From Escherichia coli (lineage in GTDB: Bacteria; Pseudomonadota; Gammaproteobacteria; Enterobacterales; Enterobacteriaceae): 64,000 nucleotides of DNA. The notes under the pieces are model-generated. The model was not told the DNA's origin. It was given only the letters and a program-made list of their open reading frames with translations, and made no database searches. The stretch is taken from the NCBI RefSeq assembly GCF_003018255.1, contig NZ_CP027440.1; one strand, given 5' to 3'. The position numbers and the translations under genes were made by a program. Below are positions 23,247 to 57,493 of this stretch, one piece after another (position 1 is the stretch's first letter; the number at the start of each line of letters is the position of its first letter).

Positions 23247-23323
<77 letters not shown>

Positions 23324-23356
23324 ATTAAAATTTGATGAAGTAAAGCAGTACGGTGA

Positions 23357-23433
<77 letters not shown>

Positions 23434-23466
23434 ATCAAAATTTGATGAAATAAAGCAGTACGGTGA

Positions 23467-23529
<63 letters not shown>

Positions 23530-23543
<14 letters not shown>

Positions 23544-23570
23544 ATTTATTAGAATGCTGACAAACCGCAA
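23530..23570 (+). repeat. Direct repeat copy 1 (tRNA 3' end plus 27 bp flank); att-like
   Basis: ggcccccgcaaccaatttattagaatgctgacaaaccgcaa recurs identically at 50661-50701. Confidence 0.85.
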
Positions 23571-23596
23571 AGCTACTATTGGCTTGCGGTTTTTTC
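23563..23596 (+). terminator. Intrinsic terminator after the tRNA array
   Basis: Stem AACCGCAA (23563-23570) / TTGCGGTT (23584-23591) followed by a T-run (23592-23596). Confidence 0.55.
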
Positions 23597-24174
23597 GTTT
23601 TTACGCTTCCTTACCCGTTTCAGTGAAGCCTGAGACAATGAGTAAACCGTTAATATCCCTCCATCAAAGCCATCCATCTTATTTATATATTAAACATATA
23701 CCCCATTAATGAATTTTATATATTCTATAAATCAATTTATTTTGGTTATGTTAACATTTCAATATCACAACAGGGCGCTACGCTTATATAATCATTGTAC
23801 AAAAAGCACACAACTTTTTAATTAGTAGAAAAATTAATAATTTTTTGTGAAAGCCCGGACAATAAGTTTAATGAATATCTTAATAGGCTCTCATACTACC
23901 CAATTTCTTAAAAGTGCAAATTTGTGAAGCTTACCCTGTTATTATTTTAAGTTTCATGCCAAATTCTCTCACCAGATAATGCCACCCTCTCCCGAAAAAT
24001 AATCAAGAGGCCAAACAATATCTAAAATGATACAACTGTATCTATTCCCCTGAAAAATACATTATTCATTTGTATATTTTCCTCATCATTGCTTTTTATT
24101 TAAATCATCCGATAATCCCCTGAATATAATTATGTCAATAACCATCAGAAAAAGTGGATGATGAGGAAAAGGAT
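23597..24174 (+). promoter_or_regulatory. AT-rich upstream region of the tssB-led T6SS operon (promoter candidate)
   Basis: About 580 bp of strongly AT-rich non-coding DNA immediately upstream of tssB. Individual sites were not mapped. Confidence 0.45.
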
Positions 24175-49077: not shown

Positions 49078-50453
49078 TGGCAAGTAACGCGAATTTTATC
49101 AGCCAGTTCGTCATGGGCGGCGATCCCTGTACTTATAAGGAATCCGGTGAACTGCAGGCTGAAATGAGTAAACTGACTCACCCGGCCCGACCGGATGTGG
49201 ACTGGCGTCAGGTGGAAAAACTCTGCCTCGCGCTGTTCCGGCAAAATGGCGTGGAACTACAGACGCTGGTCTGTTACGTGCTGGCAATAACCAGACGGCA
49301 GGGGCTGGCAGGGATGGCAGACGGACTCGGTTCACTGGATATACTGCTCCAGCGCTGGGCTGACTTCTGGCCGGTACAGGTACATTCCAGAATATCACTG
49401 CTCAGCTGGGTCACAGAAAAAATGCAGCAGGCACTGAGAACGCTGGATATTCAGTATCAGGATCTGCCGCAGATCTACCGTTGTGTACAGCATCTTTCCG
49501 CCATCGAAACCACGCTGCAACAGTGTGAACTGTGGCATATGACGAAGCTGGACGTATTGTCCGGGCAGTTTCGCAATGCGGCTCTGCGTCTGGAACGGCT
49601 GGCGCCTCAGGGAGCGGAAACCATTATCACTCCCCCTGAATTACCCCGCCGGGAAATGAATCAACCGAAAAAGTCAGAGGAAAGTCCACAGCCGGTTTTT
49701 GCAACCAGATCCGTTCAGCAAAACGATAAGGATGCCAGTCCACCCGTGCCATCCCCTGAAATCTCCCGGCAGCGGACATGGCCGATATTTATGGCCGGAA
49801 TGGTTGTGATGGCCGGTCTCGGCGGAACAGGATTATGGGGCTGGTCGCAGCTTAATCAGCCGGACGCGCTAATCCAGCGAATACAACTGTCTGTCATGCC
49901 GTTGCCGCAGTCGCTGGAGAGCGGCGAACTGGCAAAGCTGGATGTAAAGGATAAGGCGCTGCTGGCTCAGGACAGAACAATTGCGGCAAGTCAGATGCAA
50001 CTGGAGCAGTTAAACAAATTGCCTGCCCGCTGGCCACTGGAGCAGGGATATCGCCAGCTACGCCAGCTTGATGCCCTGTGGCCGGATAATCCTCAGGTCA
50101 GGGCGCTGAACGCGCAGTGGCGCAAACAGCGGGAGCTGAGCGCCCTGTCTGCTGAGGCACTGAATGGCTATGCTCAGGCGCAGAGCCAGCTACAGCGCCT
50201 GTCGGCGCAGCTGGATGCACTGGATGAACGTAAGGGGAGATATCTGACCGGTTCGGAACTAAAAACGGCGGTGTACGGCATCCGGCAGTCGTTAAAGGAG
50301 CCGCCGCTGGAAGAACTGCTTCGGCAACTGGAAGAGCAAAAACAGACCGGAGAGGTTTCGCCAACGCTGTTGACGCAAATTGATACCCGGTTAAATCAGT
50401 TGTTGAATCGCTATGTCATTTTACTGGATACGAAGGTGGAACAAAGTCAGTAA
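49077..50453 (+). CDS. tagA: TagA-like TssA-family accessory protein (ImpA_N-like domain, internal hydrophobic segment, C-terminal coiled coil)
   Basis: 458 aa; N-terminal region resembles ImpA_N (DPCTYKESGELQAEMSKL...DVDWRQVEKLCLALFRQNGVELQTLVCYVLA); hydrophobic segment WPIFMAGMVVMAGLGGTGLWGW; Q/L-rich C-terminus. ATG overlaps the tssE stop. Confidence 0.6.
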   Translation: MASNANFISQFVMGGDPCTYKESGELQAEMSKLTHPARPDVDWRQVEKLCLALFRQNGVELQTLVCYVLAITRRQGLAGMADGLGSLDILLQRWADFWPVQVHSRISLLSWVTEKMQQALRTLDIQYQDLPQIYRCVQHLSAIETTLQQCELWHMTKLDVLSGQFRNAALRLERLAPQGAETIITPPELPRREMNQPKKSEESPQPVFATRSVQQNDKDASPPVPSPEISRQRTWPIFMAGMVVMAGLGGTGLWGWSQLNQPDALIQRIQLSVMPLPQSLESGELAKLDVKDKALLAQDRTIAASQMQLEQLNKLPARWPLEQGYRQLRQLDALWPDNPQVRALNAQWRKQRELSALSAEALNGYAQAQSQLQRLSAQLDALDERKGRYLTGSELKTAVYGIRQSLKEPPLEELLRQLEEQKQTGEVSPTLLTQIDTRLNQLLNRYVILLDTKVEQSQ

Positions 50454-50660
50454 ACATCGGGGGATTTATGTACCAATAAGGGATATGTGACCTTGCCATT
50501 TTTTAAAATGGAGTCTCTGTGTACAAAAAAGAGAGGAACAGGCCATTCGATCTACTCGTTGATTCACATCAGATAATGAGTGTATATTTCGGTAGATAGC
50601 TTGGGTTCGGGAACAGTGAATACCTTAAGTTTCAAAAGATTGGATTAACCTCTTGACTGT

Positions 50661-50701
50661 GGCCCCCGCAACCAATTTATTAGAATGCTGACAAACCGCA
50701 A
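50661..50701 (+). repeat. Direct repeat copy 2 (duplicate of tRNA-fMet 3' end plus 27 bp); att-like module boundary
   Basis: Identical to 23530-23570, with no tRNA body upstream. Confidence 0.85.
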
Positions 50702-50727
50702 TGTGTTCTACAAATTGCGGTTTTTTT
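50693..50727 (+). terminator. Intrinsic terminator-like hairpin at the second repeat
   Basis: Stem AACCGCAAT / ATTGCGGTT followed by T7 (50721-50727); same stem as at 23563-23591 but with a different loop. Confidence 0.5.
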
Positions 50728-50753
50728 GTATTTAAAATCTTTGTTCGCTGAAC

Positions 50754-51710
50754 TCACAACACGTTTTTTATCTCCCTTCCTGCGAAGTAATCAATTATCG
50801 ACTGGGCAACGTGTATCCCGGTTTGCTGGTATGACTCAACGGTGGCGGCCGCGATATGCGGCGTTGTAATGATATTTTTGGCATGTAGCAGTGGGCTAAA
50901 TTGCGCCAACGGTTCAGAGCTAAACACATCCAGCGCCGCAAACACATTTCGTTCTTCAATCACCTGAAGTAAAGCGCCCTCATCCAGCAACTTTCCCCTT
51001 GCGGCATTGATGATCAGAGCACCATTGCGCATCATCGACAAATATTTATGACTAATGAAGTTCTCCAGCTCAGAAGAAAAAGGCAAAAGAACAATGATGA
51101 CATGCGACTGCATAAAGATATCTTCAATTGATACAAACTGAACTCCAGCTTTGTCAGCAACCTGATAGTCGGGTTGTTTGTCAAAAGCTAAAAGCTCAAC
51201 ATCAAAACCAGATAACCTTTTCGCCAGTGTTTTGCCAATATTGCCGTAGCCAAGCAGGCCAATACGTTTACCTTGTAACTCGCAGCCATGCGACTCACCC
51301 CAATAACCATTTTGCATTGCATGATAGCTACCGGGGATATTTCTCATGCTCGCAAAAATAAGACCGATGATAAATTCCGCGACTGCGTTTGAATTAATCC
51401 CAACAGCATTATTGACCACAATACCTGATTGTCGAGCCGTATGAAGATCAATATTATCAATCCCTGTCCCGAATCTCGATATTATTTTCACTCCTGGTAG
51501 TCGCGATAACGTATCCGCTTGATAACAATCTTTTCCGGCAATGACTGCGCAAATAGATTCTCGTAATACTGTGGATTCTGATTTAACCAGATGCTCCACA
51601 TTATTCTTGATAATAAGGTTAAAATGATTTTCTCTTAGCAGCTTGCTGGCAGAAACACAACGCGCTGAAAAGCTGGGAACGGTGACCAGAACGTTTTTCA
51701 TAGCTGACAC
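50754..51710 (-). CDS. D-isomer-specific 2-hydroxyacid dehydrogenase family protein (NAD-binding)
   Basis: 318 aa with Rossmann motif LLGYGNIGKTLAKRL; last gene of the minus-strand operon. Confidence 0.8.
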   Translation of the reverse strand: MSAMKNVLVTVPSFSARCVSASKLLRENHFNLIIKNNVEHLVKSESTVLRESICAVIAGKDCYQADTLSRLPGVKIISRFGTGIDNIDLHTARQSGIVVNNAVGINSNAVAEFIIGLIFASMRNIPGSYHAMQNGYWGESHGCELQGKRIGLLGYGNIGKTLAKRLSGFDVELLAFDKQPDYQVADKAGVQFVSIEDIFMQSHVIIVLLPFSSELENFISHKYLSMMRNGALIINAARGKLLDEGALLQVIEERNVFAALDVFSSEPLAQFSPLLHAKNIITTPHIAAATVESYQQTGIHVAQSIIDYFAGREIKNVL

Positions 51711-51771
51711 TCACATCAATGAACGCCACCCCAAAAGATGGCGTGACCGGTTACTGTTTTATATTCTAAAA

Positions 51772-52368
51772 TTATGAGTTTGCTTTAATACCGAGCGCAC
51801 CTCCTGGATGATATAAGCCGAAATCAGCACGAGTAAACTTTTTCAATTCGGAGAGCGCAAGCGCCACCGCATCACCAACAACCAGAACGACTGTTGATGA
51901 GCATGACGGCGCTAAACCTAAATTATCCGCCTCACTTTTTACGGGAATTTCAACGGATAAATCACAACTTATCGCAAGCGATGAGCGATGACTGCGGGTA
52001 AAGGAGATCAAATAATTACCCATTTTTTTCAGACTAGGTAGTGTTGCCAGGATTTCTGTCGTCTCACCACTGTTTGAAATAAGAATAACAACATCATCTT
52101 TCGCCACCATCCCAAGATCGCCGTGTACGGCTTCAGTACCGTGAACAAAAAACGAGGGAGTTCCAGTGCTGGCAAATGTTGCGGCGAGTTTTCGGGCAAT
52201 AATACCGGACTTACCGACACCAATAAAAACAACTTTCCCCTGACAAGACTGTAATACTTTAATTAAATTTGCGACCTCCGAAAGGGGGGAATCAATAACT
52301 TCTTCAACTGCTTTATGTTCGTTACGCATAAAATGTTTAATGAGATGGATAAGATCCGTACTGTTCAT
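51772..52368 (-). CDS. SIS-domain (sugar isomerase / sugar-phosphate binding) protein
   Basis: 198 aa with SIS motif VVFIGVGKSGIIARKLAATFASTGTPSFFVH. Confidence 0.8.
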   Translation of the reverse strand: MNSTDLIHLIKHFMRNEHKAVEEVIDSPLSEVANLIKVLQSCQGKVVFIGVGKSGIIARKLAATFASTGTPSFFVHGTEAVHGDLGMVAKDDVVILISNSGETTEILATLPSLKKMGNYLISFTRSHRSSLAISCDLSVEIPVKSEADNLGLAPSCSSTVVLVVGDAVALALSELKKFTRADFGLYHPGGALGIKANS

Positions 52369-52370
52369 TT

Positions 52371-53546
52371 TTATTTTCCTTGATTAATATTTTTAATTAC
52401 ACTCGCAAGACGCGTAAGCCCCATATATAATTTTTCTCGACCGCAGGCCAGGTTCAGACGAAGGTAGCCCTCCCCCTCCGTTCCATAGACATTCCCCGCC
52501 ATAATGCCCACTTTGCCTTCATGAATTAATCGACTGTAGAATTCATCAAAGGAATAACCAATAGCAGAGCAATCTATCCACGAAAAATAGCAACCATCAG
52601 CTGGCCTTACGATCAATTCTGGAGTATTTTCGTTCAGATACTGCTGGGTGAATTGAATGTTAGAGGCGATATGTGCCTTTAATGACTTTAACCATCCCTC
52701 ACATTCATTATAGGCAACAATGGTTGCAATTATATTCAGTACTGATGGGGAGTTTACGAAATCGCGATACCTCGATATCGTTCTGAACTTATGATTATAA
52801 TCCTCGTCAGTTGAAATCAGATACGATCCTGTTAGCGCAGGAACATTAAATGTTTTCGATATCGAGTTAAATACCACTACTTTTTCTTTTTTTATTTTAA
52901 GCGCGGATGTAAAGCTACGATTAAAAACAAAATCACTATGAATTTCATCTGAACATAACCAGACATTATGCCTTGTACAGCTTGTAGCGATTTTAAGCAG
53001 TTCTTCTTCCGACCAGACTGTTCCTGTCGGATTATGAGGATTACATAATAACACCATCTTTGCGCTTTTAATCTTAAGATCAAAATCTTGCCAGTTGATA
53101 GCGTAGCCCCCCTCATTTTTTATAATCAAAGAGGCTGTCAGAATATTTCGCTCGCTATGTTTAATTACATCAAAAAATGCATTATAGACAGGTGTAAAAA
53201 CGAGAATATTATCACCATGCGATGTCAATAACTCTATTGCCTTTGCAATAGAGTACATCACACTGGGGCTATAGGTTATCCATTCAGGTTTAATGTCTGT
53301 TTGATATTGTTGATGATACCAGTTTACTATCGCATTCAGATATTCACCATGTTGCCAACGACTGTACCCTAAAATCGGGTGTTCCAGGCGTTTTTTTAAT
53401 GCTCTGGTGATAGCGTCTGGTATCGGAAGATCCATATCTGAAATAGAGAAGGGTAATACATCTTTTACACCAAATCTGTCCTCGCAAAAGTCCCATTGGG
53501 TGCAATATGTTCCTTTACGGGAAATAGGAGTATTAAAAATATCCAT
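52371..53546 (-). CDS. PLP-dependent class I/II aminotransferase-fold enzyme, MalY/PatB-like C-S lyase
   Basis: 391 aa with PLP-lysine motif SISKTFN; similar in size and features to MalY. Confidence 0.8.
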   Translation of the reverse strand: MDIFNTPISRKGTYCTQWDFCEDRFGVKDVLPFSISDMDLPIPDAITRALKKRLEHPILGYSRWQHGEYLNAIVNWYHQQYQTDIKPEWITYSPSVMYSIAKAIELLTSHGDNILVFTPVYNAFFDVIKHSERNILTASLIIKNEGGYAINWQDFDLKIKSAKMVLLCNPHNPTGTVWSEEELLKIATSCTRHNVWLCSDEIHSDFVFNRSFTSALKIKKEKVVVFNSISKTFNVPALTGSYLISTDEDYNHKFRTISRYRDFVNSPSVLNIIATIVAYNECEGWLKSLKAHIASNIQFTQQYLNENTPELIVRPADGCYFSWIDCSAIGYSFDEFYSRLIHEGKVGIMAGNVYGTEGEGYLRLNLACGREKLYMGLTRLASVIKNINQGK

Positions 53547-55126
53547 CAGCGCATCCCCATGTAGTTATCCATATCCCTACGCAGGGCGATGACTTTAGTG
53601 CCGATAATGACTTGTAGGGTATTTTGATCAAGTTTAACAACCGCAATCCCGCCAGCTCTTTTTATTGCAACTTCATCAATCAATCCCATATCTGCGATTG
53701 TTAAACGTAAACGAGTTACGCAATTATCCAGTGACTTAATATTCTCTTTACCACCAAGTGCCTTAACCATCTGCTCCGCTGCTTGCAACTCTGATTTATC
53801 AAGAGTTGGGGTATCCGCTATAGCCGTATCTTCGTGAGCGTTCAGCGTGACAGGACTGGACTCTTCACGTCCTACGGTCATCAGGTTAAATTTGAGAATG
53901 GTCCAACGGAACACAAAGTAATAAATGAAGAAATAGGCCACTTCAACACACACCGCGATCGGCCAACCTGTTCTTGTGCCACGCAATACGCCAAAGCTAA
54001 TAAATTGAATCAGATCGCCAGTAAATCCCATCTTCACGCCCATATATGGCAAGACCATGTTGGCGAATCCATTCATAAAGGCATGGAAGACAAACAGCAG
54101 CGGACTGACAAATAAGAACAGAAATTCAATCGGTTCGCTGACGCCACCAATAATAACCGTAAGCACACCGGAAATAAGCAATGCTTTGATAGCCTTTCTG
54201 TTTTGAGCATGAGCAGTGCGATACATGGCCAGTGCAGCACCAGCCAGACCGTACTGAATCATCAGTTTGCCCTGCTCCATTTTCCCCGCCAAATCCAGCG
54301 GAATGACCGCATTCTCTTTGACGTACGCCATAAACATGTTCAGGGTGCCGTAATACTCTTCGCCGCCAATCACAGCCGAACCGCCGATTGGCGTAAAGCG
54401 GAACACTGACGTCACCAGATGGTTTAAGCCAAAAGGAATCGTCACACGTTCGGCAACTGCATAGAAGAAATAACCAACAGGACCGGAAGTTGATATCCAG
54501 TGGCCAATGAGCATGAAGAGATTGAAAAATGGCGGCCAGATAAAAGGAATGATCAGACCAAATCCACTCATCACAATCAGTGTAATGATAGGCACCAGAC
54601 GTGGGCCGCTATAAAAACCTAATGATTCTGGAATGCGTAAATTAACGATCTTTTTATACATGCTGGCGACTAATAACCCAGCAACAATTCCCCCTAACAC
54701 GCTGGTATTGTAGGACTGGATCCCCAGAATGATGTTTTGCCCATGTGTCGACATTTGGTCAGCAACGACCAATAAGTCGTGCTGTTTAAGATAAAAGTTC
54801 GTTCCCAGATGCATCGCCATAAAACCAATTAAGCCAGAAAAAGCACCATAGGCTTTATCCTCTTTATCTTTTAATAATCCTAAGGGAATCGCTATCGCAA
54901 ACAATACAGGTAAATTAACAAAGGCAAACAAACCAAGACTAACAATGAAATCAAGTATGGTTTTAATTATTGGAATAGCCAGAAATGGAATTAACTTTGC
55001 CATATCATCACTGGCTAAACCACTTCCCAGCCCTAGCATCATGCCACATACACTTAGCAGAGCAATGGGATACATAAATGCCTTCCCCAGGCTCTGAAAA
55101 AAACTCCAGGCTTTCTTTTGTTTCAT
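53546..55126 (-). CDS. PTS glucose/maltose-family EIICB component (MalX/PtsG-like)
   Basis: 526 aa; polytopic EIIC followed by an EIIB domain with the active-site cysteine motif NCVTRLRL. Confidence 0.85.
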   Translation of the reverse strand: MKQKKAWSFFQSLGKAFMYPIALLSVCGMMLGLGSGLASDDMAKLIPFLAIPIIKTILDFIVSLGLFAFVNLPVLFAIAIPLGLLKDKEDKAYGAFSGLIGFMAMHLGTNFYLKQHDLLVVADQMSTHGQNIILGIQSYNTSVLGGIVAGLLVASMYKKIVNLRIPESLGFYSGPRLVPIITLIVMSGFGLIIPFIWPPFFNLFMLIGHWISTSGPVGYFFYAVAERVTIPFGLNHLVTSVFRFTPIGGSAVIGGEEYYGTLNMFMAYVKENAVIPLDLAGKMEQGKLMIQYGLAGAALAMYRTAHAQNRKAIKALLISGVLTVIIGGVSEPIEFLFLFVSPLLFVFHAFMNGFANMVLPYMGVKMGFTGDLIQFISFGVLRGTRTGWPIAVCVEVAYFFIYYFVFRWTILKFNLMTVGREESSPVTLNAHEDTAIADTPTLDKSELQAAEQMVKALGGKENIKSLDNCVTRLRLTIADMGLIDEVAIKRAGGIAVVKLDQNTLQVIIGTKVIALRRDMDNYMGMR

Positions 55127-55157
55127 GTGGGTTATCTCATATAAATGTTATATATAA

Positions 55158-55982
55158 TTAGTCCATTAATACTTTGGTACGAATAGAGAGATATAGTTTT
55201 TCTTCTAAAATTAATTCATATTTAAAAGTGGCATACAGATACCGTTCAATTTCATGAATTGCGCGCTGTAACAGGATGTCCTTTTCAAGAAACTGTTCAT
55301 AGATATCACCAATATCTTTCTGTTTTATTTTTTCATTGCATAACACGCGACTTGAAAAATATTTAAGGTGCATCATAAATCTGGAATAGTTAAATGAACT
55401 TCTGTCCACCTTTCTGTTATAAACAACTTCAATAAGCTCCGTGATTATTTGCGACAACTCAATAATCCGTACTGATTCATAATCAACTGAATTTTCATAA
55501 TTATTTAAAATATGCAATGCTATAAAACCAATCTCATCATCAGGAAGTTGAACGCTGAATTGCTCATTAATGATAGTTAATGCATCGCGACTTATCGCAT
55601 ACTCTGCTTTGTACAACGCTTTGATTTCATCAAGGAAAACATTATTAATTTGTATACCTGAAACTACTCGGGATATTGCATTCGAAATGTGATCCGCAAG
55701 AATCAATAGTAGCGATGGATTGAGATTTTTTTCGAGATTTTTCTCCGCATATTGCACTATTTTTTCGGCAACAAAAATATACTCAATATCCACATGTTCA
55801 ATCAATTTGTAGAGTTTATTTTTTTGTTCGTTTCTGACATAAAAAATCCGGTTAGCCGGATGTTCAGGGACCGACATTCCATATTTTTTGTTATAACCGA
55901 CGCCAGGTCCAGAAATGATAACCTCCTGTCCATTCATCGATGCCTGTACACAATTATTGTTCATGACTTTTTCGATGATCAT
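55158..55982 (-). CDS. BglG/SacY/GlcT-family transcriptional antiterminator (CAT RNA-binding domain plus two PRDs)
   Basis: MIIEKVMNNNCVQASMNGQEVIISGPGVGYNKKYG (CAT domain) followed by PRD-like regions. Start placed at ATG 55982; the track extension to 56039 translates the leader RAT/terminator. Confidence 0.8.
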   Translation of the reverse strand: MIIEKVMNNNCVQASMNGQEVIISGPGVGYNKKYGMSVPEHPANRIFYVRNEQKNKLYKLIEHVDIEYIFVAEKIVQYAEKNLEKNLNPSLLLILADHISNAISRVVSGIQINNVFLDEIKALYKAEYAISRDALTIINEQFSVQLPDDEIGFIALHILNNYENSVDYESVRIIELSQIITELIEVVYNRKVDRSSFNYSRFMMHLKYFSSRVLCNEKIKQKDIGDIYEQFLEKDILLQRAIHEIERYLYATFKYELILEEKLYLSIRTKVLMD

Positions 55983-55993
55983 TCCATGACTCC

Positions 55994-56068
55994 AAAAAAA
56001 AAGGCAAGGCACGTCAGAAGTAATAATTACTTCAAACATTGCCTTGCCTGATTTAACAGTTACAAGAT
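55994..56068 (-). promoter_or_regulatory. RAT (ribonucleic antiterminator) overlapping an intrinsic terminator in the leader of the antiterminator/PTS operon
   Basis: Minus strand: TCTTGTAACTGTTAAATCAGGCAAGGCA (close to sacB/bgl RAT consensus), whose 3' half GGCAAGGCA pairs with TGCCTTGCC (inner stem GAAGTA/TACTTC), followed by T9 and the start codon. Confidence 0.75.
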
Positions 56069-56118
56069 GATTAACTAATGCGTATACATTACACGGAATT
56101 GTGCTTAATTAAAGAGAT

Positions 56119-56143
56119 GGTCGGCTTATTTTTCAAGCCGACA
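56119..56143 (-). terminator. Hairpin candidate downstream of amiC
   Basis: Stem GTCGGCTT / AAGCCGAC with a 7-nt loop; the following U-tract on the minus strand is interrupted (CATCTCTTTAATT), so it is weak. Confidence 0.3.
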
Positions 56144-56239
56144 TTCAAATATTCGACATCAGTCACAAAACCAGCATCTAATATTCATGAAAATGTTATC
56201 TATTCAACGAAATATAAATTCATTGAATAAATAAAAACA

Positions 56240-57493
56240 TCATCCCCTTCTCGCCAGCGTCGCCCCATCGGCAAAATACGCTTTAATCCCCGCAAGAATA
56301 GACTCCGCAACTTCCTGCTGGAAAGTCGCCGTTTTCAGTTTACGTTCTTCCTCAACGTTACTGATAAACGCCGTTTCGACCAGAATGGAGGGAATATCTG
56401 GTGCCTTTAGTACGGCAAACCCGGCCTGTTCAACTTGATTTTTATGCAGCTTGTTGATTTTACCGAGCTTATTCAGCACCGCTTTACCAAACTTCAGGCT
56501 GTCGGCAATGGTCAGCGACTGCACCATATCGAACATGGTGTGGTCGACATAGCGGTCACCGCTTTTGCTCACGCCACCAATCAAGTCCGAGGCGTTCTGG
56601 GTTTGTGCCAGATATTTTGCCGCAGTACTGGTTGCACCTTTGGTTGAGAGCGCAAACACAGAGGAACCGCTCGGCTGACGACTGGTAAAGGCGTCGGCAT
56701 GGATAGAGACAAACAGGTCAGCACGCTGTTTCTGGGCTTTTGCTACGCGCACTTGCAACGGAATGAAGATGTCTTCATTGCGCGTCATGTACACCTTCAT
56801 ATTGCCCTCTTTCTCGATCAGAGAGCGCAGACGGCGAGCTATTTGCAATACCACGTCTTTTTCGCGCGTTTTGTATTTCCCCACCGCACCGGAGTCTTCG
56901 CCACCGTGGCCAGGGTCAAGCATAATGACAATAGGACGATCGCGCCCTGCTTTACCCGGTTGTGGACCACTTTGTGCTGGCGGCACCTGCTTTTCGAGGT
57001 CGCCTTTGTTGTAATCCTCCAGCAGCGCCAGCAGCGGGTCCTGCATATCCTGTGCATTGGCCGGATAGAGGTCCATCACCAGACGCTCTTTAAACCCGGC
57101 GACCGGCGCAAGGGCAAACAGCTGCGGTTTTACGTTTTGCTTTAATTCAAAAACCATACGTACGGTTTGCGGGTCAAATTGCCCGACGCGCGCCGACTTG
57201 ATGAACGGGTCGTCAGCGCGGATTTGCGCAGCCATCCCCTTGAGTACCGAGTTCAGGTTTACATCTTCGATATCCACCACCACGCGTTCAGGATTACTCA
57301 ACGCGAACTGCTTATATTTCAGCTGACGATTTGATTCTACCGTCACGCGGGTGTAGCTGGACGCAGGCCAGACGCGCACCGCCACGACCTGGCTGACCGC
57401 AGCCAGGCTGACCTGACTTACGCTCAATAGCCACATGGCACCCGCGCCTTGCAGTAAACGACGACGGCTGATTGCAGTGTTGGATCCTGACAT
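56240..57493 (-). CDS. amiC: N-acetylmuramoyl-L-alanine amidase AmiC (Tat-exported, Amidase_3)
   Basis: [31 protein letters not shown] (twin-arginine signal) ...; 417 aa from ATG 57493; the track's 30 upstream codons are a non-native extension. Confidence 0.93.

What the first reader, a model, noticed from the sequence alone, without database searches (positions are those of the whole stretch)
50754..56068. Accessory PTS operon: PRD antiterminator, glucose-family EIICB, MalY-like lyase, SIS protein, 2-hydroxyacid dehydrogenase
On the minus strand, between the second repeat and amiC, five tightly packed genes form an operon. The EIICB/C-S-lyase pair resembles malX-malY, but here it is coupled to a BglG/GlcT-type antiterminator rather than a LacI-type repressor, and extended by a SIS-domain protein and a D-2-hydroxyacid dehydrogenase. 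The substrate is not deducible from sequence; the enzyme set suggests a modified sugar or sugar-amino-acid conjugate. I recall a PTS gene set in the CFT073 metV island but cannot verify identity.
Basis: partly seen in the sequence, partly recalled or inferred. Interest (0 to 1): 0.6.

Follow-up and report, generated by a model that had tools for sequence, protein, structure and literature searches.

The report
Known UPEC paf/c3405-c3409 PTS operon
This is the already-described accessory sugar-transport operon of uropathogenic E. coli (pafR-pafP plus three enzymes, CFT073 c3405-c3409) inserted between tRNA metV and amiC; it is real, intact and controlled by its own RNA antitermination switch, but what sugar it handles is still unknown.

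Summary
Five intact minus-strand genes lie between the second metV-derived repeat and amiC: a LicT/BglG-type antiterminator, a MalX-like EIICB, a PatB/MalY C-S lyase, a SIS-only arabinose-5-phosphate-isomerase-like protein and a PGDH-like D-2-hydroxyacid dehydrogenase. K-12 has only 73 nt at this site. The block is the CFT073 PAI-metV operon c3405-c3409/10 (95-99% aa identity). Its antiterminator and permease are published as pafR and pafP, and the SIS protein is c3406, whose structure is solved (PDB 5UQI). It is therefore already known.

This analysis adds four points.
- A RAT box overlaps a strong terminator directly upstream of pafR. It is conserved in every orthologous locus and occurs once per genome.
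- The conserved unit is a four-gene cassette (antiterminator, EIICB, lyase, SIS) shared with gut Firmicutes, including C. difficile CD3027-CD3031. The dehydrogenase is a later addition.
- The cassette is independent of the neighbouring T6SS island.
- It is present in about 31% of complete E. coli genomes.

The substrate remains unknown. Interest is low to moderate.

The parts
56152..56167 (-). Candidate CRP-like half-site (TGTGActgatgTCGAA) in the leader; inference only
   Evidence: The TGTGA box is conserved in the Escherichia and Atlantibacter leaders and is partly kept in Citrobacter. Coordinates were read. Function was not tested.
56083..56094 (-). Conserved block GTGTAATGTATA, a candidate -10 region of the operon promoter; inference only
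   Evidence: The block is nearly invariant across 7 enterobacterial leaders. The sigma-70 consensus scan found no strong promoter in the leader.
56042..56067 (-). RAT (ribonucleic antiterminator) hairpin: UCUUGUAACUGUUAAAUCAGGCAAGG
   Evidence: An exact match to TTGTNACTG-N6-CAGGCAA is unique in the window; the chance expectation is 0.17 even when 2 mismatches are allowed. It folds as a two-stem hairpin. The same element is found in all orthologous loci. It occurs once per genome in 1688 E. coli genomes (one genome has two places). Paired cells are 89%, against 26-54% in the slid controls.
55994..56049 (-). Intrinsic terminator (10-bp GC-rich stem plus inner helix, then U9); its 5' arm (56049-56042) overlaps the 3' half of the RAT
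   Evidence: Folding gives -34.1 kcal/mol, z = -5.57, with 0 of 200 shuffles folding as well. The arms co-vary between Escherichia, Citrobacter, Atlantibacter, Enterobacter and Enterococcus.
55158..55982 (-). pafR (c3409): CAT + PRD1 + PRD2 antiterminator, 274 aa
   Evidence: NCBIfam LicT 225 bits and GlcT 179 bits. PDB hits are LicT and the bgl antiterminator. It is 99.3% identical to the CFT073 protein. His98, His157 and His205 are kept; the fourth histidine is Arg.
53546..55126 (-). pafP (c3408): glucose-family PTS EIICB, MalX-like, no EIIA domain
   Evidence: TIGR02004 scores 536 bits, below the cut-off of 632. It is 42% identical to K-12 MalX and has the NCVTRLRL EIIB motif. It is 98.9% identical to the CFT073 protein.
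52371..53546 (-). c3407: PatB/MalY-family PLP-dependent C-S beta-lyase
   Evidence: TIGR04350 scores 368 bits, above the cut-off of 340. PDB hits include MalY, PatB and cysteine-S-conjugate lyases. It is 36% identical to K-12 MalY, with the SxSKxFN PLP-lysine motif conserved.
51772..52368 (-). c3406: single-domain SIS protein (arabinose-5-phosphate isomerase type, no CBS pair)
   Evidence: PDB 5UQI/5VHU match at 404 bits over all 198 residues, with only a few substitutions; the protein is 97% identical to CFT073 c3406. It aligns to KdsD residues 36-201 only.
50754..51701 (-). c3405: D-isomer-specific 2-hydroxyacid dehydrogenase, PGDH-like; a lineage-specific addition to the cassette
   Evidence: The best NCBIfam hit is PGDH at 217 bits, far below the cut-off of 454. 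PDB relatives are distant. It is present only in the Escherichia, Citrobacter, Atlantibacter and L021 versions.
50661..50734 (+). Second copy of the metV 3' end plus a metV-type terminator; it is the right boundary of the T6SS island and the left boundary of the PTS module
   Evidence: Direct-repeat families D4 and D7. In genomes without the T6SS island, the PTS block abuts tRNA-Met exactly here (H48-H59). The hairpin folds at -17.4 kcal/mol on the minus strand.
23530..23603 (+). First copy of the repeat (genuine metV 3' end and downstream terminator)

Best explanation
The block is the paf/c3405-c3409 operon of the E. coli metV island. It is a horizontally acquired PTS cassette that regulates itself.

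Regulation (shown in sequence; mechanism inferred from the family). Transcription starts in the AT-rich leader downstream of amiC and normally stops at a strong intrinsic terminator just before pafR. When the cognate sugar is transported, the EIICB PafP stops phosphorylating PRD1 of PafR. PafR then binds the RAT hairpin, whose 3' half would otherwise form the terminator's 5' arm. RNA polymerase reads through into pafR-pafP-lyase-SIS-dehydrogenase. Because pafR lies behind its own terminator, this is a positive feedback loop, like t1-bglG in E. coli.

Phosphoryl supply (inferred). PafP has no EIIA domain and the operon has no EIIA gene, so it must take phosphate from the chromosomal EIIA-Glc (Crr). 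The clostridial versions carry their own Glc-type EIIA.

Metabolism (inferred, low confidence). The imported sugar phosphate is processed by a Cbeta-S lyase and an aldose-ketose isomerase that has arabinose-5-phosphate isomerase activity. In the Escherichia/Citrobacter lineage a D-2-hydroxyacid dehydrogenase is added. No glycosidase is linked in any lineage, so the substrate is probably a monosaccharide derivative and not an oligosaccharide. Its identity is unknown.
For: Identity. The locus has the same position, order and orientation as CFT073, with 95-99% aa identity. PMC2831201 places c3405-c3410 in PAI-CFT073-metV. pafR and pafP are described as metV-island genes with mouse bladder and kidney phenotypes. 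The SIS protein matches PDB 5UQI over its full length, and Mosberg 2011 is cited as showing it to be an API.

Domains. All five proteins pass profile searches. LicT-type CAT and PRD domains and three regulatory histidines are present.

Switch. The RAT is unique in the window. The terminator has z = -5.57. RAT/terminator units are present at all 12 orthologous loci examined, with co-varying terminator arms. The RAT, terminator, SD and ATG are almost invariant across 7 enterobacterial leaders, while the sequence upstream diverges. There is one RAT per genome in 1688 genomes (a second place in one), matching the 1686 genomes that carry the block.

EIIA. EIIA_1 genes lie next to the cassette in C. 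difficile and in two other Firmicutes loci (Clostridium sp. KNHs214 and L018), and are absent in the enterics.

Cassette. The four-gene core is found in 10 different genomic neighbourhoods. The C. difficile operon CD630_30270-30310 is co-regulated, and its MalY is reported to be a cysteine desulfhydrase in vitro.
Against: Their details therefore rest on citations and on my memory.

Covariation inside the RAT is weak: one double-sided change, and most pairs are invariant.

No consensus sigma-70 promoter was found in the leader. From memory, Baum et al. could not detect promoter activity in vitro.

PafR has Arg where LicT has His269, so HPr-dependent control may differ.

Reviews describe PafR as affecting virulence, biofilm and motility genes elsewhere, which a purely cis-acting switch does not explain.

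The enzymes do not form an obvious pathway, and none of them reaches an equivalog cut-off that would fix a substrate.
Confidence: 0.85

Rival explanations
1. The cassette is mainly a sensory system. PafP senses a host-derived sugar and PafR antiterminates, or otherwise regulates, distant virulence, biofilm and motility genes. The linked enzymes are secondary.
For: Reviews of Baum 2014 say that PafR expression changes virulence, biofilm and motility genes, and that pafR and pafP mutants are attenuated in mouse UTI. In Enterococcus faecalis the related antiterminator NagY has direct targets away from its own locus. No glycosidase or kinase is present to complete a catabolic route.
Against: Only one paf-type RAT was found per genome (a second place in one genome), and it sits in the operon's own leader. 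However, divergent RATs would be missed by that search. The lyase and SIS genes are kept with the transporter across phyla and in unrelated neighbourhoods. That pattern suggests selection on the enzymes themselves.
Confidence: 0.25
2. The main function is sulfur and cysteine metabolism. The MalY-like lyase (a cysteine desulfhydrase/cystathionase) is the functional payload, producing pyruvate, ammonia and H2S or homocysteine. The PTS and antiterminator only tie its expression to sugar availability.
For: The lyase scores above the PatB C-S-lyase cut-off. All characterised PDB relatives are C-S lyases. C. difficile MalY in the orthologous operon is reported as a cysteine desulfhydrase in vitro, as essential, and as the most biofilm-induced gene.
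Against: This does not explain why a specific EIICB clade (60% identity or more, separated from generic MalX at 46% or less) and a SIS isomerase always travel with the lyase. E. coli already has several cysteine desulfhydrases (established knowledge).
Confidence: 0.2
3. The operon supplies arabinose-5-phosphate for Kdo, LPS or capsule synthesis, with c3406 acting as an extra KdsD/KpsF-type isomerase.
For: The SIS protein is closest to KdsD, KpsF and GutQ. It is cited as an API relevant to LPS precursors.
Against: The same SIS gene is conserved in the cassette in Gram-positive bacteria that have no LPS, such as C. difficile, Clostridium and Enterococcus. From memory, Mosberg 2011 found that a c3406 deletion still colonised mice. 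E. coli already has KdsD and GutQ.
Confidence: 0.05
4. The operon is a cryptic, silenced locus like bgl, retained but rarely or never expressed.
For: The leader is AT-rich with no consensus promoter. From memory, no in-vitro promoter activity was found by Baum et al. The bgl operon is the classic H-NS-silenced precedent (PMC2646131).
Against: All five ORFs are intact here. The block is present at 80% coverage or more in 1686 complete genomes, and its regulatory leader is highly conserved. Mutants show in-vivo phenotypes.
Confidence: 0.1

Closest known systems
E. coli CFT073 PAI-metV genes c3405-c3410 (pafR = antiterminator, pafP = EIICB, c3406 = API)
   Same: The locus is the same (between metV/T6SS and amiC), with the same five genes in the same order and 95-99% aa identity. 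The leader RAT and terminator are identical.
   Different: The window comes from a different strain. The 3' genes are only about 93% identical at nucleotide level, while the flanks are 98-99% identical. The original annotation counted six genes, but RefSeq now calls five.
E. coli bgl operon (t1-bglG-t2-bglF-bglB)
   Same: Both have a PRD antiterminator gene preceded by its own RAT/terminator and followed by the cognate EII. Both are AT-rich, horizontally acquired loci. The fourth PRD histidine is missing in both: Asn in BglG, Arg in PafR.
   Different: PafR is only 30% identical to BglG and scores higher against LicT. There is no second terminator between pafR and pafP, where the spacer is 31 nt. 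The EII is a glucose/MalX-type EIICB without EIIA, whereas BglF is a beta-glucoside EIIBCA. There is no phospho-beta-glucosidase. The RAT differs from the bgl RATs at positions 1-3, 8, 26-27 and in the loop.
E. coli K-12 malI-malX-malY
   Same: An EIICB gene is followed directly by a PLP C-S lyase gene. The proteins are 42% and 36% identical to MalX and MalY, with catalytic motifs conserved.
   Different: The K-12 operon is regulated by the LacI-type repressor MalI, not by antitermination. It has no SIS or dehydrogenase gene. The EIICB here scores below the MalX family cut-offs.
Clostridioides difficile CD630_30270-30310 (EIIA, phosphosugar isomerase, malY, malX, antiterminator)
   Same: It is an orthologous four-gene core with the same order. 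The EIICB is 68% identical, the lyase 51%, the SIS 52% and the antiterminator 36%.
   Different: It has its own EIIA gene and no dehydrogenase. Its RAT/terminator lies between the antiterminator and EIICB genes and is present as four tandem 104-nt units. The fourth PRD histidine is retained.
B. subtilis glcT-ptsG and licT-bglPH (from established knowledge)
   Same: They use the same RAT-versus-terminator mechanism with a glucose-family EII. The clostridial versions have the glcT-like layout, with the RAT between the regulator and the transporter.
   Different: The E. coli version places the RAT upstream of the regulator gene. The EII has no EIIA domain. Extra enzymes are attached.
E. coli gut (srl) operon with gutQ
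   Same: It is a PTS operon that carries an arabinose-5-phosphate isomerase paralogue with no obvious catabolic role (established knowledge; Meredith and Woodard 2005, cited).
   Different: GutQ has the CBS pair and c3406 does not. The PTS family and the mode of regulation are different.

Membership tests
CFT073 paf / c3405-c3409 operon of PAI-metV | Located between tRNA metV (or the T6SS island) and amiC | tested here: met
CFT073 paf / c3405-c3409 operon of PAI-metV | Same five genes, same order, near-identical proteins | tested here: met
   Amino-acid identities are 95.3, 97.0, 96.2, 98.9 and 99.3%.
BglG/SacY/LicT PRD antiterminator system | CAT RNA-binding domain followed by two PRDs | tested here: met
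   The LicT model aligns over positions 1-269 of 273 at 225 bits. LicT CAT-PRD1 and PRD structures align. CAT_RBD and PRD Pfam hits are recorded on the orthologues.
BglG/SacY/LicT PRD antiterminator system | Four conserved phosphorylatable histidines (LicT H100, H159, H207, H269) | tested here: inconclusive
   Three are kept (H98, H157, H205). The fourth is Arg in the Escherichia/Citrobacter/Atlantibacter clade and His in the other orthologues. E. coli BglG also lacks it, with Asn at that position.
BglG/SacY/LicT PRD antiterminator system | A cis RAT hairpin that overlaps an intrinsic terminator | tested here: met
   Covariation within the RAT is weak, but the terminator arms co-vary.
BglG/SacY/LicT PRD antiterminator system | Cognate PTS EII encoded next to the regulator | tested here: met
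   pafP starts 31 nt after pafR.
BglG/SacY/LicT PRD antiterminator system | Demonstrated antitermination activity and EII-dependent phosphorylation | not testable with these tools
   From memory, Baum 2014 reports antitermination by PafR. The paper could not be read.
PTS glucose family, MalX subfamily EIICB | EIIC followed by an EIIB domain with the active-site Cys (C-x-T-R-L-R) | tested here: met
   The sequence contains NCVTRLRL, and the protein aligns full length with MalX.
PTS glucose family, MalX subfamily EIICB | Score above the curated MalX cut-offs | tested here: not met
   Scores are 536 against 632 (TIGR02004) and 525 against 665 (NF007509). A distinct clade at 60% identity or more is separated from generic MalX at 46% or less.
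PatB/MalY C-S lyase (TIGR04350) | Score above the curated cut-off and the PLP-binding lysine | tested here: met
   The score is 368.4 against a cut-off of 340. The SISKTFN motif aligns with SGSKSFN of MalY.
PatB/MalY C-S lyase (TIGR04350) | Cbeta-S lyase activity | not testable with these tools
   The C. difficile orthologue is reported as a cysteine desulfhydrase in vitro.
KpsF/GutQ/KdsD arabinose-5-phosphate isomerases | SIS domain of the API type | tested here: met
   KdsD scores 197 bits over residues 36-201 and KpsF 192 bits. PDB 5UQI and the KdsD SIS domain 2XHZ match.
KpsF/GutQ/KdsD arabinose-5-phosphate isomerases | C-terminal tandem CBS domains | tested here: not met
   The protein is only 198 aa and ends where the SIS domain ends. 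Its TIGR00393 score of 191.8 is below the cut-off of 203.7.
D-isomer-specific 2-hydroxyacid dehydrogenases | Rossmann motif GxGxxG...D and the catalytic Arg/Glu/His | tested here: met
   The sequence shows GYGNIG...AFD, NAARG, SSEP and TPHIA directly.
D-isomer-specific 2-hydroxyacid dehydrogenases | Assignment to a substrate-specific equivalog (SerA, PdxB, GhrA/B, LdhA, VanH) | tested here: not met
   All scores fall far below their cut-offs; the best is 217 against 454.

The most novel reading that the evidence does not exclude
The four-gene cassette (antiterminator, MalX-type EIICB, Cbeta-S lyase, single-domain API) may be a mobile catabolic unit that moved from gut Firmicutes into Enterobacteriaceae. 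Its true substrate may be a thio-linked or amino-acid-linked monosaccharide, for example an S-glycosyl- or sugar-cysteine conjugate from host or diet. The sugar phosphate would be split by the lyase and then isomerised into the pentose-phosphate pool. If so, this would also explain why K-12 pairs malX with malY, and why an API sits in PTS operons.
Probability: 0.12. Interest if true: 0.65.

Novelty: already known. Interest (0 to 1): 0.25.

Why it matters
The operon is one of the few metabolic loci of the UPEC metV island with a reported in-vivo fitness effect, yet its substrate has never been identified. This analysis shows that its conserved core is shared with C. difficile, where the lyase is reported as essential and strongly induced in biofilm, and with other gut Firmicutes. 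It also shows that the operon carries its own RAT/terminator switch. Together these give two practical handles: a leader-reporter fusion to screen for the inducer, and cross-species comparison to narrow down the chemistry. Beyond that, this is an ordinary, well-annotated accessory operon.

Tried and rejected
- **Rfam.** A permissive scan of 50400-56400 found nothing; RAT elements are not matched by any Rfam family.
- **Consensus scans.** The promoter/terminator scan missed the leader terminator because its loop is longer than 8 nt, and it found no promoter in the leader. The -10 and CRP-like boxes I list are therefore only conserved blocks.
- **RAT covariation.** The formal test was weak, with one double-sided change. 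I rely on the terminator-arm covariation and on the conservation of position.
- **Primary papers.** Lloyd 2009, Mosberg 2011, Baum 2014 and Cech 2017 are not held. Searches by CFT073 locus tag found nothing newer.
- **Dehydrogenase context.** I looked at the dehydrogenase's relatives for a substrate clue. The 40% relatives sit in sugar ABC-transporter clusters, one with NanA-, NanE- and NanK-like genes. This is too distant to transfer a function.
- **SIS-dehydrogenase spacer.** The hairpin there is not better than shuffled sequence (z = -0.59).
- **4DGT.** I asked whether PDB 4DGT is the C. difficile cassette lyase. It is not; it is a paralogue.
- **Overlapping ORFs.** The plus-strand and small leader ORFs have no support and were not pursued.

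Full report
**1. Observation**

The region 50754-56039 holds five long minus-strand ORFs packed head to tail. Junctions are -1 nt (EIICB/lyase), 2 nt (lyase/SIS), 31 nt (antiterminator/EIICB) and 61-70 nt (SIS/dehydrogenase).

NCBIfam profiles identify them as follows:
- a LicT/GlcT/BglG-family antiterminator (225 bits to LicT);
- a glucose-family EIICB closest to MalX (536 bits, below the MalX cut-off of 632);
- a PatB-family C-S lyase (368 bits, above the cut-off of 340);
- a SIS protein that aligns only to the isomerase domain of KdsD, KpsF and GutQ;
- a D-2-hydroxyacid dehydrogenase nearest to phosphoglycerate dehydrogenases but far below every equivalog cut-off.

The antiterminator ORF as listed starts at 56039. 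The family alignment begins at residue 20, and a GGAG lies 7 nt before the ATG at 55982. RefSeq relatives are annotated at 274 aa, so 55982 is the likely start. GC content is about 0.41 in the block against about 0.52 in amiC-argA.

**2. Setting and boundaries**

The window carries metZ, metW and metV at 23247-23543, followed by a type VI secretion island, this block, and then amiC (56240 onward) and argA. A 41-nt perfect direct repeat (23530-23570 and 50661-50701) continues imperfectly to 23603/50734. It consists of the last 14 nt of metV plus its downstream terminator.

The T6SS island is bracketed by these repeats. The PTS block lies outside them, between the second copy and the amiC stop codon. 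In K-12, metV and amiC are separated by 73 nt with unrelated terminators, and homology resumes exactly at the amiC stop.

The two modules are independent. Of 5426 complete E. coli genomes, 1686 carry at least 80% of the PTS block, and 943 have the T6SS-PTS junction seen here. In many others the block abuts tRNA-Met directly at the repeat, and some have the T6SS end without the PTS genes.

**3. Identity with the published locus**

CFT073 has the same five genes in the same place, with protein identities of 95.3% (dehydrogenase), 97.0% (SIS), 96.2% (lyase), 98.9% (EIICB) and 99.3% (antiterminator).

The literature that could be read supports the following points:
- PMC2831201 lists c3405-c3410 as a 'PTS system, maltose/glucose specific' set inside PAI-CFT073-metV, present in four UPEC strains, E2348/69 and SMS-3-5.
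- A 2022 review and a 2023 paper summarise Baum et al. 2014. pafR is the metV-island transcription regulator, pafR/pafP mutants are attenuated in mouse bladder and kidney, and PafR expression alters biofilm, motility and virulence genes.
- The SIS protein matches PDB 5UQI/5VHU over all 198 residues with only a few substitutions. Mosberg et al. 2011 are cited as showing it to be an arabinose-5-phosphate isomerase from this island.

The primary papers were not available. My recollections of them are marked as memory: the c3405-10 deletion is out-competed in mice, c3406 alone is dispensable, no promoter activity was seen in vitro, and PafR can antiterminate. On this evidence the finding is already known.

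**4. The switch**

Read on the minus strand, the leader contains UCUUGUAACUGUUAAAUCAGGCAAGG (56067-56042), which matches the RAT core of the BglG/SacY family. The exact pattern TTGTNACTG-N6-CAGGCAA occurs once in the 64-kb window. The chance expectation is 0.17, even with two mismatches allowed.

Its 3' half is also the 5' arm of a hairpin (56049-56002) followed by nine U's. The region folds at -34.1 kcal/mol with z = -5.57. A GGAG motif and the pafR ATG follow directly. Rfam has no match.

The same arrangement occurs in every orthologous locus I could fetch. The terminator arms change in a compensatory way:
- GGCAAGGCA/UGCCUUGCC in Escherichia;
- GCAAGACAAC/GUUGUCUUGC in Atlantibacter;
- GGGCAAUAC/GUAUUGCCC in Enterobacter sp.

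The upper RAT stem switches from CUG/CAG to CUA/UAG in two lineages. A formal count on 13 RATs gives 89% paired cells, against 26-54% in the slid controls, but only one pair has changes on both sides. The RAT is thus conserved mainly as sequence, as expected for a protein-binding site.

Across seven enterobacterial leaders, the RAT, terminator, SD and start codon are almost invariant, while the upstream sequence diverges. The exceptions are a GTGTAnnGTATA block and a TGTGA box. I list these only as a candidate -10 region and a candidate CRP half-site.

The 46-nt RAT region is found in 1688 genomes, once in all but one of them, and is at least 99% identical in 1413. The 31-nt pafR-pafP spacer holds no second terminator.

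The layout therefore resembles the first half of the E. coli bgl operon (RAT/t1-bglG), and it implies positive autoregulation.

**5. Regulator and transporter details**

PafR aligns with LicT through the CAT, PRD1 and PRD2 domains. The histidines equivalent to LicT H100, H159 and H207 are kept. H269 is replaced by Arg in Escherichia, Citrobacter and Atlantibacter, but is retained in the other seven orthologues aligned, including Enterobacter sp. ENT03, Enterococcus, C. difficile and Clostridium. E. coli BglG has Asn at this position. PafR is 30% identical to BglG.

PafP is 42% identical to K-12 MalX and has the EIIB active-site motif NCVTRLRL. It has no EIIA domain, and no EIIA gene is linked in the enterobacteria. 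The clostridial cassettes have a Glc-type EIIA gene beside them. I infer that E. coli uses Crr.

**6. The conserved unit and its origin**

A search with the EIICB finds a distinct clade at 60% identity or more, separated from generic MalX-type transporters at 46% or less. The clade includes Atlantibacter, Citrobacter, Enterobacter, Enterococcus termitis, C. difficile, Longicatena and Clostridium sp..

In ten different neighbourhoods the same cassette recurs: antiterminator, EIICB, PatB-like lyase and a SIS protein of about 198 aa. No glycoside hydrolase is linked in any of them.

The dehydrogenase is present only in the Escherichia, Citrobacter and Atlantibacter versions and in one further metagenomic lineage, L021, where it is 48% identical.

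In the enterobacteria the cassette is 4-10 GC points below its flanks. In C. difficile, Clostridium and Enterococcus it is close to the host composition. This fits transfer from low-GC Firmicutes into Enterobacteriaceae. In Atlantibacter the cassette sits at the same amiC-to-mltA site.

The C. difficile version is CD630_30270-30310. Its five genes change together in vivo, to 0.04-0.37 of wild type in a fliC mutant. Its malY is reported to be essential, to be a cysteine desulfhydrase in vitro, and to be the most biofilm-induced gene.

**7. Enzymes**

The lyase is 36% identical to K-12 MalY, and the PLP-lysine motif and the other conserved blocks align. Its PDB relatives are MalY, PatB, cystalysin and cysteine-S-conjugate lyases. 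The C. difficile orthologue is closest to MalY itself.

The dehydrogenase shows the NAD-binding GYGNIG...D motif and the Arg/Glu/His catalytic set in its sequence. It has only distant PGDH and glyoxylate-reductase relatives.

None of this fixes a substrate. Because the cassette contains only a transporter, a Cbeta-S lyase and an aldose-ketose isomerase, my best guess is a monosaccharide derivative, possibly carrying an amino-acid or thiol moiety. I hold this with low confidence.

**8. Verdict**

The operon is already known and partly characterised.

This analysis adds the cross-phylum four-gene core, the position-variable RAT/terminator, the independence from the T6SS island, and a prevalence of about 31% in complete genomes. 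This is a much wider distribution than the early descriptions of a UPEC-restricted locus. Interest is low to moderate. The open question is the substrate, and the leader switch offers a direct way to screen for it.

Noticed in passing
L003 1152-1570 (Clostridioides difficile, spacer between the antiterminator and EIICB genes): Four tandem 104-nt units lie between the two genes. Each unit carries a canonical RAT (GGATTGTAACTGGTTAAGCAGGCAAAACC) overlapping its own terminator. TRF reports period 104, 4.0 copies and 92% matches. A serial array of RAT-terminators is unusual for this family, and I do not know whether it has been described.
   Followed up: partly
L013 4956 and 5943; L017 5956 and 6943; L018 5990 and 6909: Some Firmicutes versions carry two RAT elements, one upstream of the antiterminator gene and one before EIICB. 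Enterobacteria keep only the upstream one and C. difficile only the downstream position. The second Enterococcus site has a weak hairpin (-11 to -13 kcal/mol) and no U-run.
   Followed up: partly
window 55158-55982 (PafR residue ~268; alignment A1): The fourth regulatory histidine of the PRD family (LicT H269) is Arg in the Escherichia/Citrobacter/Atlantibacter clade, the same clade that has the dehydrogenase. It is His in all other orthologues, and E. coli BglG has Asn at this position. This may reflect altered HPr control in enterobacteria.
   Followed up: partly
window 23530-23603 and 50661-50734; island 23604-50660: The roughly 27-kb T6SS island (tssF/G/J/E and vasL-like genes at its right end) is bracketed by a direct repeat of the metV 3' end plus a terminator. 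In E. coli genomes it occurs with or without the PTS block, so the 'metV island' is two separate insertions.
   Followed up: yes
window 50754-53546 compared with L015 and L007: Divergence within the operon is uneven. The dehydrogenase and SIS genes are about 93% identical to CFT073 at nucleotide level, while the flanks and pafR are 98-99% identical. In E. coli E69 the lyase is only 85.7% identical at protein level while its neighbours are 93-97%. This suggests allelic recombination or relaxed or diversifying selection on the enzymes.
   Followed up: no
window 56120-56142 (minus strand): A 9-bp hairpin (GTCGGCTTgaaaaatAAGCCGAC) with a poor U-tail lies about 100 nt downstream of amiC, where the K-12 amiC terminator has been replaced. 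It is only partly conserved in other E. coli, so read-through from amiC into the paf leader is possible.
   Followed up: no
L022 2786-10626 (Cohnella faecalis): A 40%-identical relative of the dehydrogenase sits in a cluster with a GntR regulator, an ABC sugar importer, and DHDPS/NanA-like, NanE-like and ROK-kinase genes. This hints that this dehydrogenase clade works on sugar-acid-type substrates. The relationship is too distant to transfer a function.
   Followed up: no
window 50454-56239 compared with E. coli genomes: No complete E. coli genome matches this block at more than 98.5% identity, although core flanks are 97-99% identical to CFT073. The window therefore comes from a lineage, or carries an allele combination, that is not represented among 5426 complete genomes.
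   Followed up: no
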